64,000 nucleotides of DNA, taken from positions 27,033 through 91,032 of the forward strand of contig CAZOAG010000001.1 of NCBI GenBank assembly GCA_964577805.1, read 5' to 3'. Shown here piece by piece: positions 27,001 to 30,000 of the stretch. Each line of letters starts with the position of its first letter. Position 1 is the first letter of the stretch. The DNA comes from an uncultured Opitutales bacterium (GTDB lineage Bacteria > Verrucomicrobiota > Verrucomicrobiia > Opitutales > JAIRKQ01). Made by a program: the position numbers.

Positions 27001-30000
27001 TGTTCGTATTGTTGAATTAGAACATTCGCAATGTGGTATTTACGAAAATGTTCCATTGGGGCGTTTTGGAGAGATTTGTTATAAAAGCGGCAGTAACGTA
27101 AAGTTTACGCATACAAAATTATATGGTTTTTGTGATCAACGTGGAAGGATATGGTGTTGTGGCCCCATTAGTATGACAGCAATAGTAGACGGGAAGCGAT
27201 ATTTCCCTTATTGCATTGAACCATTGTTTGAACGTATATGGTGGGTGGTTCGTTGTGAGTTTTATCCTGATATGTCATCTTTTGGACATGATGGGCGAGG
27301 GGTAGTAATTACAACTATTCCGGGGTTATTTTGCACGATTCCGTTTTTTAAAAAATATTTCATGCGGCGGTTACAACGATTCGCTGATAGATTTCCAATT
27401 GCGCATGATTTATCGATAGTTATCAATAACAAACAGAGTTGTGGATAAAAGACGAAGAATAATTTTTTGATTGTTTTTGACGAAATTTTTTAGTGATTTT
27501 GACTTCACTGTAGTTTATGGATAAATTCGAATGAGTCATTCTTGCGTCTTTGTGGAATAATTGTACACGGAAGACTATTTTTAAATGACAAAATTTTTAC
27601 GAGAATAAATGTTCCCAACAGATTTTACAGTACAAGCATGAACAAATGATTCCACTATAATTCGAAACATGTGGAAATTATACGCGATAAGATCGTTTTA
27701 TTGCGAAATTATTTGGTCAGATGTTGTTTGTTGAGATTGTTCTTCATCAACACTTTCAGCCAATACTGTTCCGCCTGATACATGAACGATCTTTTTGATT
27801 TCATCTTCTAATGCTTTTTCTACATCAGGATTATTTTTTAAATATTGTTTTGCGGCTTCTCGCCCTTGTCCGATCAATTTGCCGTTATGTGCTATCCACG
27901 CACCTTTTTTTTCTAGTATTTTATGCTCAAGTCCGATGTCGATAATTGATCCTGTGCGAGATATTCCCTCATTAAACATAATATCGAATTCGCATTCAGT
28001 AAATGGAGCAGCCACTTTGTTTTTTACAATCTTTACTCGTGTGCGGTTACCACTTACTCTGCCAGAATTTTCTTTGATTTGGTTGATTCGTCGAATGTCC
28101 ATTCTTACAGACGAAAAGAACTTCAGTGCACGTCCACCAGGTGTAGTTTCAGGATTTCCGAACATTACACCGATTTTTTCTCTTATTTGATTAGTAAAAA
28201 TACATATACATTTGGATTTGCTGATGGCGGATGTCAACCTGCGCATGGCCTGGCTCATCATTCGTGCTTGTGCGCCGACAGTAACATCTCCTACCTGTCC
28301 ATCGAGTTCCGCTTTTGAAACAAGCGCTGCAACAGAATCCACAACAATGACATCGATTGCGCCTGATCGTATTAATGTTTCTGTAATGTTTAACGCATCT
28401 TCCCCATTTTCCGGTTGTGCCACGATTAAACTGTTTAAATCAACACCGACTACTTTAGCATATCGTGGATCAAGGGCATGTTCAACATCGATAAAAACAG
28501 CATTGCCTCCTTGCCTTTGTGCCTCTGCAATAACACTAAGACAGAATGTAGTTTTTCCAGATGATTCTGGGCCAAAGATTTCACATATTCTTCCGCGAGG
28601 AAGACCGCCAACACCGAGTGCAAGGTCCAGTGCTAGTGAGCCAGTTGAAATGACAGAAATATCCATTTTCTTGGTATCTCCGAGTTTCATAATAGATCCT
28701 TCACCAAATTGTTTATTTATGGCTGCCATTGCTAGATCTATTGTTTGAGCGTCTTTTTGCGAGCTGGCTTCTTGCTTCATGACTGACAACACATAATAGA
28801 GGTTGTTTAATAATCAAGCATGATTTTTTCTGGAGATTTTTTGTAAAATGACCTATATGTGATAGGTAATAATGAAATGTTCATGCAATAAAGATGCAAT
28901 AGGTAAGTTGATTATTCGCGCTGTTTTAGGAGTATTATTTGCTGCGAAGGGTATAAAGTTTTTTGTTGGAGGAAAGACTGCATTAATCGCTTTTGGAAAA
29001 ATTTTAAGCACAATAGGAATCACATTTTGGCCATTGTATTTTGGATGGGTATTGGCGTGTGTTTGCGTGGTTTGCGGAATGACATTATTGTTGGGTGTGT
29101 TTTTTAAAACAACAACATTTTTATTAGGGACGATATTGTTGTTAGATACGATATGCAAATATTATATGGGATATCGTGTGTTCGACGCTGTTGCGTATTC
29201 TGCAATGATTGTTGCTGTGATGTATGGAATGATGTTCGTTGGGGCTGGGGAATACGCTGTTCAAAAATGAATATTGGTCTTGATTGTAAAATAAATCAGA
29301 TAGGATAGGTAGCATGGCTGAAATGATTGTCCGGATTGTGATGTTTCTTTTGGTATTGTCTGTCTGTGGTGGCATTATTGTTATGCTATCTCGTCGCGGA
29401 CGGTTTTCTTTTGGAAATATTGTGCCCGATAAAGATAATATTCGCGTTGTTTCTACACGTAATTTGGGCGGAGGAAAAATGTTGGTAGCAGTTGAGCATA
29501 TGGGGACGCATTTTTTATTAGTTGTCACGCCAGAAGATATTAAAAAATTGTCGGAATGGCCAGTTGTTGCTGTAGAAGAGTAGAGTTGTTTTTGCATATT
29601 TTTGATATATGCAATTTAGAGTTAGCTTGTGACATCTGTTGATTGTTATTGTTTAATATGCCATTTAATTGACAAGATGATGTCTTGATTTGTCAGTTGA
29701 CATTGTTTTGTAAAATCTTCATGGTGAGACATATGGACATCATAGATAGTCATTGCCATTTGGATGATTTTTATGCTGATGGTACGATATCGGATGTTAT
29801 GTCGCGTGCGCGTGCTGCACAAGTAAGGAGATTTATTGCTGTTGGAACGTGTTATGCAGATTGGCAGTTTTATTCGAAGTTTGTCAAAGAGAATAATGAT
29901 ATATATTACACAGTAGGATTACATCCATTATATGTTGAGCATAGTAGTGATCTTGAGCATATTGTGGATTTTTTGAAGGATGATAAATTAGTTGCTATTG

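What the first reader, a model, noticed from the sequence alone, without database searches (positions are those of the whole stretch)
29314..29583. Orphan FliO-like gene far from any fliP/sctR, just upstream of tatD-rpoN
The 89-aa product has the FliO architecture: one TM, a basic anchor, and then IRVVSTRNLGGGKMLVAVEHMGTHFLLVVTPEDIKKLSEWP. This aligns position by position with the conserved FliO core that I recall from E. coli (LKISASASLGARERVVVVDVEDARLVLGVTAGQINLLHKLP). In flagellar systems, FliO is the dedicated scaffold for FliP assembly and normally sits directly upstream of fliP. Injectisomes are generally described as lacking a FliO equivalent. Here the only FliP-family gene in view is an SctR-type gene 10 kb away, and no flagellar gene is present in the window. 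There are two readings. An injectisome may have retained or recruited a FliO-like assembly factor, which would be new. Or this may be a dislocated remnant of a flagellar locus.
Basis: partly seen in the sequence, partly recalled or inferred. Interest (0 to 1): 0.55.

Follow-up and report, generated by a model that had tools for sequence, protein, structure and literature searches.

The report
Orphan FliO gene beside injectisome genes
This small gene is a real, conserved member of the FliO family (the membrane chaperone that helps flagella build their export pore), sitting alone in a verrucomicrobial genome that carries a needle-type type III secretion system; it most likely helps assemble that system's pore, a situation already reported in 2025 for other bacteria.

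Summary
The ORF at 29314..29583 (+) encodes 89 aa, and Pfam FliO (PF04347) scores 33.5 bits against a cut-off of 22. An AlphaFold2 model shows the FliO core: one TM helix and a four-stranded β-sheet.

The gene is under purifying selection (dN/dS 0.11). It is kept at the same position, recA | doxX-like – fliO-like, in 13 genomes of the Opitutales/Puniceicoccales lineage (Verrucomicrobiota).

The window carries an injectisome-type T3SS in pieces: sctQ-sctR at 18.6–20.2 kb and sctJKLNOP at 41.5–46.7 kb. SctR, SctJ, SctL and SctN pass NCBIfam injectisome models, and SctR fails the flagellar FliP model. No flagellum-specific gene was found in the window or in 396 kb of related DNA.

In one more distant relative (L020) the FliO homologue directly follows sctJKLNOPQR. 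The best reading is a trans-encoded assembly chaperone for the SctR export gate (inferred, about 0.5).

Not excluded: a flagellar regulon elsewhere in the genome (a whole-genome inventory was not possible), or a T3SS-independent role with the DoxX-like neighbour.

FliO homologues in non-flagellar T3SS operons and in non-flagellated Chlamydiia were published in 2025 (PMC12403147). This is therefore a new member of a known kind.

The parts
29314..29583 (+). fliO-like gene, 89 aa: TM helix (about residues 2-27), basic anchor RRGR, and a small cytoplasmic four-stranded β-sheet domain (43-83) ending in the lineage motif KLSEW
   Evidence: ORF. Pfam PF04347 33.5 bits > 22. TIGR03500 27.9 bits < 55.25. 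AF2 model pLDDT 80.8. hhalign 99.7% to operon-verified flagellar FliO. dN/dS 0.11 against L007.
28872..29270 (+). DoxX-like small membrane protein (132 aa), 43 bp upstream on the same strand. It is the conserved neighbour and probably co-transcribed. It may be a functional partner or only a syntenic one.
   Evidence: Pfam DoxX is sub-threshold (20.9 bits < 23.6), and 11 of 13 orthologues hit DoxX. The order recA(-) | doxX-like(+) fliO-like(+) is conserved in all 12 genome loci L007-L018. dN/dS 0.07.
19569..20222 (+). sctR (FliP-family export-gate subunit of an injectisome-type T3SS), the proposed client of the FliO-like protein, 9.1 kb upstream
   Evidence: Pfam FliP 227 bits. NCBIfam TIGR01102 yscR 279 > 208.6. 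Flagellar fliP TIGR01103 192 < 217.45.
17754..19566 (+). 262-aa ORF with no family hit, followed by an sctQ-like gene (333 aa, FliMN_C domain after a D/E-rich insert of about 200 aa). Together with sctR they form an isolated three-gene piece.
   Evidence: The same isolated triad occurs in L052, L053 and L054.
41481..46679 (+). sctJ-sctK-sctL-sctN-sctO-sctP block of the same injectisome-type T3SS, 11.9 kb downstream
   Evidence: Pfam YscJ_FliF, YscK, FliH/T3SS_SCTL, T3SS ATPase, YscO and HpaP. NCBIfam SctJ TIGR02544 211.6 > 161.95, SctL NF005392 190 > 159, SctN NF005391 747 > 657.

Best explanation
The gene encodes a true FliO-family protein: one N-terminal TM helix and a small cytoplasmic β-sheet domain. 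It is kept as a stand-alone gene in a low-GC Opitutales/Puniceicoccales (Verrucomicrobiota) lineage whose injectisome-type T3SS genes are scattered around the chromosome.

By analogy with flagellar FliO, it most likely acts in trans as a transient inner-membrane chaperone. Flagellar FliO binds and stabilises FliP and promotes the FliP-FliR core of the export gate, and is then released (Fabiani et al. 2017, PMC5542435). In Campylobacter jejuni it affects FlhB stability (PMC12403147). Here the proposed client is the FliP homologue SctR (19569..20222), or the SctRST/SctU gate.

What is shown: family membership, fold, conservation, purifying selection, injectisome genes on the same contig, and direct sctR-fliO adjacency in one relative.

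What is inferred: the client (SctR), the chaperone mechanism, and the absence of a flagellum.
For: Family membership:
- Pfam FliO is above its gathering score.
- All 19 non-flagellar-context homologues hit PF04347.
- The profile-profile match to FliO proteins lying directly upstream of fliP is 99.7%, E 2.8e-26.
- The AF2 model has a TM helix plus a four-stranded sheet, matching the published FliO core.

A functional gene:
- dN/dS is 0.11.
- The ORF is intact at a fixed position in 13 genomes at 40-91% identity.

Link to the injectisome:
- The window's SctR, SctJ, SctL and SctN pass injectisome equivalog models, and SctR fails the flagellar FliP model.
- SctR is widespread in 'Puniceicoccales bacterium' MAGs at 58-87% identity.
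- In L020 the homologue P0039 follows sctJ-K-L-N-O-P-Q-R after a 189-bp gap. L020 SctN is 70% and SctR 53% identical to the window's.
- The sct genes contiguous in L020 and L055 lie in two separate pieces in the window, and L020's also-contiguous FliO homologue lies apart from both, so being unlinked is what this lineage would be expected to show.

No sign of a flagellum in the DNA available:
- No FlgD/E, FliK/L/M/J or MotA/B homologue was found in the window or in 396 kb of held DNA from orphan and NF-T3SS loci.

Published precedent:
- FliO homologues occur in vT3SS operons and in non-flagellated Chlamydiia.
Against: - In the window lineage the gene is never adjacent to a T3SS gene. Its only conserved neighbours are a DoxX-like gene and recA.
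- The intact T3SS cluster of another Verrucomicrobiota MAG (L055, sctV...sctU) has no FliO within 10 kb.
- Only one sctR-linked case (L020) was found, and its SctR is not a close relative (53% identity).
- The FliO tree does not resolve orphan and T3SS-linked sequences from flagellar ones. Only the recA-linked clade has support, 81%.
- The protein falls below NCBI's FliO equivalog cut-off.
- The complete genome was not inventoried, so a flagellar fliP elsewhere is not excluded.
- There is no interaction or expression evidence.
Confidence: 0.5

Rival explanations
1. T3SS-independent role. The FliO-like protein works with its conserved DoxX-like neighbour, or as a chaperone for some other membrane protein. 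On this view it is a repurposed FliO fold with no link to the injectisome.
For: - The doxX-like/fliO-like pair, 37-43 bp apart on the same strand, is the only conserved linkage in 13 genomes.
- In L011 the pair is closed off by a convergent gene.
- Other orphan homologues sit in unrelated housekeeping contexts: rplS-fliO-prmC in L023, before xerC in L019, and L022 and L031.
- The intact T3SS cluster L055 lacks FliO.
- PMC12403147 also proposes non-T3SS roles for orphan FliO homologues.
Against: - The DoxX-like neighbour is absent next to the orphan and T3SS-linked homologues outside the recA-linked clade.
- DoxX has no known dependence on FliO.
- The only experimentally established FliO clients are T3SS gate proteins (PMC5542435, PMC12403147).
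- L020 shows direct sctR linkage.
- Gene order in this lineage is generally scrambled, so adjacency is a weak guide.
Confidence: 0.3
2. An ordinary flagellar fliO that has merely been displaced. On this view the genome has a full flagellar regulon, with its own fliP, outside the 64-kb window.
For: - The whole genome could not be searched.
- Sequences outside the lineage that are about 30% identical include bona fide flagellar FliOs.
- From my own knowledge, not tested here, some Opitutales (e.g. Opitutus terrae) are flagellated.
Against: - In all flagellar loci retrieved that cover the neighbouring gene, 23 operons, fliO lies directly upstream of fliP. L021 is the exception, with fliM-fliN-fliO but no fliP following.
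- No flagellum-specific gene was found in the window or in 396 kb of related DNA.
- The orphan position is stable across the clade.
- Relatives look genome-reduced and host-associated: a complete 878-kb genome and a TLC nucleotide translocase. Such lifestyles usually lack flagella, which is an inference.
Confidence: 0.12
3. A decaying remnant of a lost flagellar locus, or a chance ORF, with no function.
For: The gene is short, isolated, and scores below the NCBIfam equivalog cut-off.
Against: - dN/dS is 0.11, with 18 synonymous against 8 non-synonymous differences.
- The ORF is intact in 13 syntenic genomes that have diverged to about 40% identity.
- All homologues still hit Pfam FliO.
- The fold prediction is confident.
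Confidence: 0.03

Closest known systems
Flagellar FliO (E. coli/Salmonella b1947; Pfam PF04347), the FliP chaperone of the flagellar export gate
   Same: Same family and same core: a single TM helix, a basic anchor and a small cytoplasmic β-sheet. The alignment is in register. The presumed job is also the same, assisting assembly of a FliP-family pore subunit.
   Different: It is not encoded upstream of fliP in a fliLMNOPQR-type operon. The only FliP-family gene in view is SctR-type and lies 9 kb away. Identity to E. coli FliO is only about 19%, and the score is below the TIGR03500 equivalog cut-off. At 89 aa it is shorter, with no periplasmic N-terminal extension.
FliO homologues inside non-flagellar (virulence-type) T3SS operons of Myxococcota and some Pseudomonadota (Andrianova et al. 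2025, PMC12403147)
   Same: A FliO-family protein associated with an injectisome-type T3SS rather than a flagellum. The relative L020 has that arrangement exactly (sct...QR-fliO).
   Different: In the window the gene is unlinked from every T3SS gene. The host is a different phylum (Verrucomicrobiota, Opitutales/Puniceicoccales). The protein has no LysM or AMIN domain.
Orphan-like FliO homologues of non-flagellated Chlamydiia (e.g. WP_011097025.1; PMC12403147)
   Same: Both are PVC-superphylum organisms with a scattered injectisome gene layout and a FliO homologue encoded away from the T3SS genes.
   Different: The neighbours differ: YbjN-family chaperone, MqnB and MqnD in Chlamydiia, against DoxX-like, recA, tatD and rpoN here. 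The authors suggested a menaquinone-enzyme chaperone role for the chlamydial protein.

Membership tests
FliO (Pfam PF04347) | Scores above the Pfam gathering threshold | tested here: met
   33.5 bits against 22, E 4.6e-8. All 19 of 19 non-flagellar-context homologues also hit.
FliO (Pfam PF04347) | Homology to FliO proteins verified by operon position (directly upstream of fliP) | tested here: met
   hhalign of A6 against A7: 99.7%, E 2.8e-26, 91 aligned columns.
FliO (Pfam PF04347) | Core architecture of a single TM helix followed by a small antiparallel β-sheet on the cytoplasmic side (PMC12403147) | tested here: met
   AF2 model with helix 2-27 and strands 43-52, 55-62, 65-71 and 76-83, pLDDT 80.8. 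The RRGR stretch after the TM helix fits a cytoplasmic C-terminus by the positive-inside rule, which is an inference. No solved FliO structure exists to compare with (PDB Foldseek: nothing at E <= 0.001).
Flagellar FliO equivalog (NCBIfam TIGR03500) | Scores above NCBI's equivalog cut-off | tested here: not met
   27.9 bits against 55.25.
Flagellar FliO equivalog (NCBIfam TIGR03500) | Encoded in a flagellar operon directly upstream of fliP | tested here: not met
   The neighbours are doxX-like, recA, tatD and rpoN. The window has no flagellum-specific gene.
Flagellar FliO equivalog (NCBIfam TIGR03500) | Stabilises FliP and promotes the FliP-FliR complex | not testable with these tools
   This needs biochemistry, such as BN-PAGE and stability assays as in PMC5542435.
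T3SS-operon-encoded non-flagellar FliO (PMC12403147) | fliO homologue located inside an injectisome-type T3SS operon | tested here: not met
   In the window the gene is 9.1 kb from sctR and 11.9 kb from sctJ. The feature is met only in relative L020.
T3SS-operon-encoded non-flagellar FliO (PMC12403147) | The accompanying T3SS is non-flagellar (injectisome type) | tested here: met
   SctR TIGR01102, SctJ TIGR02544, SctL NF005392 and SctN NF005391 are all above their cut-offs. The fliP, fliF and FliI equivalogs are below theirs. YscK, YscO and HpaP Pfam hits are present.
Orphan FliO of non-flagellated bacteria (Chlamydiia type, PMC12403147) | The genome lacks flagellar genes | tested here: inconclusive
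   None were found in the 64-kb window or in 396 kb of related loci.
Orphan FliO of non-flagellated bacteria (Chlamydiia type, PMC12403147) | Conserved operon with a YbjN-family chaperone, MqnB and MqnD | tested here: not met
   No such neighbours occur in the window or in L007-L018.

The most novel reading that the evidence does not exclude
FliO was never lost from the PVC-type injectisome. On this reading it persists as an unlinked but required assembly chaperone for the SctR/SctRST export gate in Opitutales/Puniceicoccales symbionts and, by extension, in Chlamydiia. If so, the chlamydial FliO homologue would serve CdsR rather than menaquinone enzymes, and the textbook statement that injectisomes assemble their gate without a FliO would hold only for the well-studied proteobacterial systems.
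Probability: 0.3. Interest if true: 0.6.

Novelty: new member of a known kind. Interest (0 to 1): 0.35.

Why it matters
Until 2025, FliO was treated as the one export-apparatus protein that separates flagella from injectisomes.

This locus adds a further phylum-level lineage, host-associated and genome-scrambled Verrucomicrobiota, in which a FliO homologue is maintained under selection next to an injectisome and apparently without a flagellum. One relative shows the two physically linked (sct...QR-fliO).

Taken together with the published chlamydial orphan, this suggests a testable idea: PVC-type injectisomes still use a FliO chaperone encoded in trans. That could be tested in genetically tractable Chlamydia.

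It also shows that pipelines which judge FliO by operon context will miss such genes.

Tried and rejected
- Pairwise BLASTP of the window protein against E. coli FliO gave no alignment. Only the family and profile methods see the relationship.
It was repeated with 7 closer sequences.
- Foldseek against the PDB gave no hit at E <= 0.001, and no FliO structure has been solved. The AFDB library was not available.
- A neighbour-joining tree of 42 FliO cores with 200 bootstraps left the deep branching unresolved. It cannot say whether the orphan clade descends from a T3SS-linked or a flagellar FliO. A first attempt timed out and a second had invalid distances; both were discarded.
- The sigma-54 promoter consensus search gave 40 matches against 33 expected, none upstream of fliO-like or the T3SS pieces. 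The adjacency to rpoN is not conserved beyond the closest relative, so the rpoN link is dropped.
- The sigma-70 promoter and terminator scan was at background level.
- The supplementary datasets of PMC12403147 are truncated in the library. They could not be checked for Opitutales or Puniceicoccales entries.
- Literature searches for Puniceicoccales T3SS and for the accession numbers of related genomes found nothing.
- A fused-chain or multimer structure prediction of FliO-like with SctR was not attempted.
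Full report
**1. The observation**

The ORF at 29314..29583 (+) is real. AGGA/AGGT Shine-Dalgarno-like motifs lie 5-13 nt upstream of the start. Only eight sense codons separate the ATG from the upstream in-frame stop (frame segment 29290..29580), so the protein begins right at its hydrophobic segment.

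Pfam FliO (PF04347) matches residues 26-82 at 33.5 bits, above the gathering score of 22, with E 4.6e-8. NCBI's stricter flagellar equivalog model TIGR03500 gives 27.9 bits, below its 55.25 cut-off.

Pairwise BLASTP finds nothing. That comparison set 19 non-flagellar-context homologues against 14 FliO proteins that lie directly upstream of fliP; hhalign gave 99.7%, E 2.8e-26.

An AlphaFold2 model built on a 30-sequence alignment has mean pLDDT 80.8. It shows a helix at 2-27 and four β-strands at 43-83. This is the conserved FliO core described by Andrianova et al. 2025: one TM helix plus a small cytoplasmic antiparallel sheet (PMC12403147). The RRGR stretch after the helix fits a cytoplasmic C-terminal domain, by inference from the positive-inside rule.

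**2. The surroundings and the organism**

The window is 36% GC with a strong positive GC skew, and most genes are on the + strand.

The direct neighbours of the gene are:
- recA (27698..28792, -);
- a DoxX-like 132-aa membrane protein (28872..29270, +), 43 bp upstream;
- tatD (29685..30518);
- rpoN (30521..31798).

The window also carries pieces of one injectisome-type T3SS. One piece is a 262-aa unknown ORF, an sctQ-like gene and sctR at 17754..20222. The other is sctJ-K-L-N-O-P at 41481..46679.

NCBIfam confirms the type:
- SctR passes TIGR01102 (279 > 208.6) and fails flagellar fliP TIGR01103 (192 < 217.45).
- SctJ, SctL and SctN pass their injectisome equivalogs.
- The fliF and FliI models are below their cut-offs.

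tblastn with flagellar reference proteins taken from genuine flagellar operons found only the shared homologues SctN~FliI and SctR~FliP in the window. It found no FlgD/E, FliK/L/M/J, MotA/B, FliQ/R or FlhA/B.

A scan of one genome per species placed the locus in Verrucomicrobiota. The closest record is an 'uncultured Opitutales bacterium' MAG (L007, 91% identity, same gene order). Eleven termite-gut 'Puniceicoccales bacterium' MAGs carry homologues at 40-45% identity.

**3. Conservation**

All 12 genome loci keep the order recA(-) | doxX-like(+) fliO-like(+).

The genes further downstream differ. In L011 they are a convergent RNA methyltransferase, PFK, tsaD, rpsB and tsf. The adjacency to tatD-rpoN is therefore recent, and I give it no weight. 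A search for the sigma-54 promoter consensus was at background level, with no hit upstream of the gene or the T3SS pieces.

Between the window and L007 the gene has 18 synonymous and 8 non-synonymous differences, giving dN/dS 0.11. The DoxX-like gene has 0.07 and recA 0.015. All 19 homologues from non-flagellar contexts hit Pfam FliO. This is a maintained gene, not a decaying remnant.

A sequence search of 1.84 billion representative proteins found only 17 hits at E <= 0.001, so the clade is small and divergent.

**4. Link to the T3SS**

SctR is widespread in 'Puniceicoccales bacterium' MAGs at 58-87% identity. In three relatives the unknown-sctQ-sctR triad is isolated from the other T3SS genes, as it is in the window. 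These are L052, L053 and L054; L054 comes from a complete 878-kb genome, and L052 has a TLC nucleotide translocase nearby.

An intact cluster in another Verrucomicrobiota MAG (L055) reads sctV-sctD-needle genes-sctJ-K-L-N-O-P-Q-R-S-T-U. The window's two pieces are therefore fragments of that order.

The key comparative result is L020, a 38% GC contig of unknown organism. Its homologue P0039 is about 32% identical to the window protein. It lies 189 bp downstream of sctR, at the end of an sctJ-K-L-N-O-P-Q-R operon. L020 SctN is 70% and SctR 53% identical to the window's.

Against this, L055 has no FliO within 10 kb of its cluster. Other homologues are orphans in unrelated housekeeping contexts: L019 before a xerC-like gene, L022, L031, and L023 between rplS and prmC.

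More distant homologues are canonical flagellar FliOs. P0048 and P0049 lie in such operons, as do 21 of the 25 metagenome loci found with the P0039-group profile. In these 23 operons fliO lies directly upstream of fliP; in L021 fliO follows fliM-fliN but no fliP follows it.

A neighbour-joining tree supports only the recA-linked clade (81%) and leaves the deeper relationships unresolved. I therefore cannot say whether the orphan descends from a T3SS-linked or a flagellar copy.

No flagellum-specific homologue occurs in 396 kb of DNA held from orphan and NF-T3SS loci. That is only a sample of those genomes.

**5. Most likely mechanism**

Flagellar FliO is a transient membrane chaperone. It protects FliP and promotes the FliP-FliR core of the export gate, and it is absent from the finished basal body (PMC5542435). 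In Campylobacter jejuni it affects FlhB stability (PMC12403147).

The FliP homologue SctR is the only known kind of FliO client encoded here. I therefore propose that the 89-aa protein acts in trans on SctR, or on the SctRST/SctU gate, of this scattered injectisome.

What is shown:
- family membership and fold;
- conservation and purifying selection;
- an injectisome on the same contig;
- one linked relative.

What is inferred:
- the client;
- the mechanism;
- the absence of a flagellum.

Confidence is about 0.5.

**6. Rival explanations**

(a) A T3SS-independent role with the DoxX-like neighbour or another membrane client, about 0.3. The doxX-fliO pair is the only conserved linkage in this clade, and 11 of 13 DoxX-like orthologues hit Pfam DoxX at sub-threshold scores. 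The pairing is absent outside the clade, however, and DoxX has no known link to FliO.

(b) A displaced flagellar fliO with a full regulon elsewhere, about 0.12. This cannot be excluded without the whole genome. It is disfavoured by the near-invariant fliO-fliP adjacency in flagellar loci (23 of 24 retrieved here; L021 lacks fliP after fliO), by the stable orphan position, and by the reduced, host-associated look of the relatives.

(c) A remnant or chance ORF, about 0.03. This is contradicted by the selection and conservation data.

**7. Comparison with what is known**

The statement that injectisomes lack FliO (PMC5542435) was revised in 2025. Andrianova et al. (PMC12403147) report FliO homologues in three non-flagellar settings:
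- non-flagellar T3SS operons of Myxococcota and several Pseudomonadota;
- singleton genes in some Rhizobiales;
- non-flagellated Chlamydiia, where the gene sits with a YbjN-family chaperone, MqnB and MqnD.

The present gene is a further case, in Opitutales/Puniceicoccales, with a different orphan context. It passes the tests for FliO family membership. It fails the tests for a flagellar FliO equivalog and for an operon-encoded T3SS FliO.

I therefore rate it a new member of a known kind, with moderate-to-low interest (0.35). The most novel reading not excluded is that PVC-type injectisomes, chlamydial ones included, still depend on a trans-encoded FliO.

**8. What could not be done**

- Multimer modelling with SctR.
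- Expression data.

The decisive tests are listed separately.

Noticed in passing
window 1..64000: GC is 36% and GC skew is about +0.25 throughout, with roughly 80% of the long ORFs on the + strand. This suggests a leading-strand stretch of a low-GC, probably host-associated genome.
   Followed up: no
window 17754..19566: The sctQ-like ORF has a D/E-rich insert of about 200 aa before its FliMN_C domain. It is preceded by a 262-aa ORF with no family hit. The unknown-sctQ-sctR triad is conserved and isolated from the other T3SS genes in L052, L053 and L054.
   Followed up: partly
L020 1103..8432: A contig from an unidentified organism (38% GC) carries sctJ-K-L-N-O-P-Q-R followed after 189 bp by a 143-aa FliO homologue. 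This places a FliO gene next to sctR in a lineage not named in the 2025 survey. The contig ends 640 bp later, so what follows is unknown.
   Followed up: partly
L052 5408..6943; L054 (CP095464.1): Relatives carrying the same sctQR piece include a MAG with a TLC ATP/ADP translocase 3 kb away and a complete genome of only 878 kb. This points to an intracellular or otherwise reduced symbiont lifestyle in this verrucomicrobial lineage.
   Followed up: no
L019 838..7718 compared with window 16942..29583: In L019 the orphan FliO gene is followed directly by a XerC/D-like recombinase (37% identical to window 25860..26753). A 3'-5' exonuclease homologue (45% identical to window 16942..17604) lies 5 kb upstream. 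In the window these two genes bracket the sctQR-to-fliO stretch, so this may be remnant macro-synteny.
   Followed up: no
L023 4220..5770: In another Puniceicoccales MAG, a 127-aa FliO-like gene overlaps the end of rplS by 4 bp and the start of prmC by 35 bp. The precomputed annotation recorded no Pfam hit for it, but a direct scan did find one. This is a different housekeeping insertion site for the same family.
   Followed up: partly
window 31890..31979; 9113..9187; 54753..54828: tRNA-Ser(tga) lies between rpoN and the next ORF. tRNA-Arg(cct) and tRNA-Met(cat) lie elsewhere in the window. The long minus-strand ORF at 31594..32025 is an artefact that overlaps the tRNA-Ser gene.
   Followed up: no
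window 28872..29270 and L007-L018: The DoxX-like neighbour is more conserved (48-59% identity) than the FliO-like gene (40-45%) and ends in a GxGxYAVQK motif. It scores just below the Pfam DoxX gathering threshold in 11 of 13 orthologues.
   Followed up: partly
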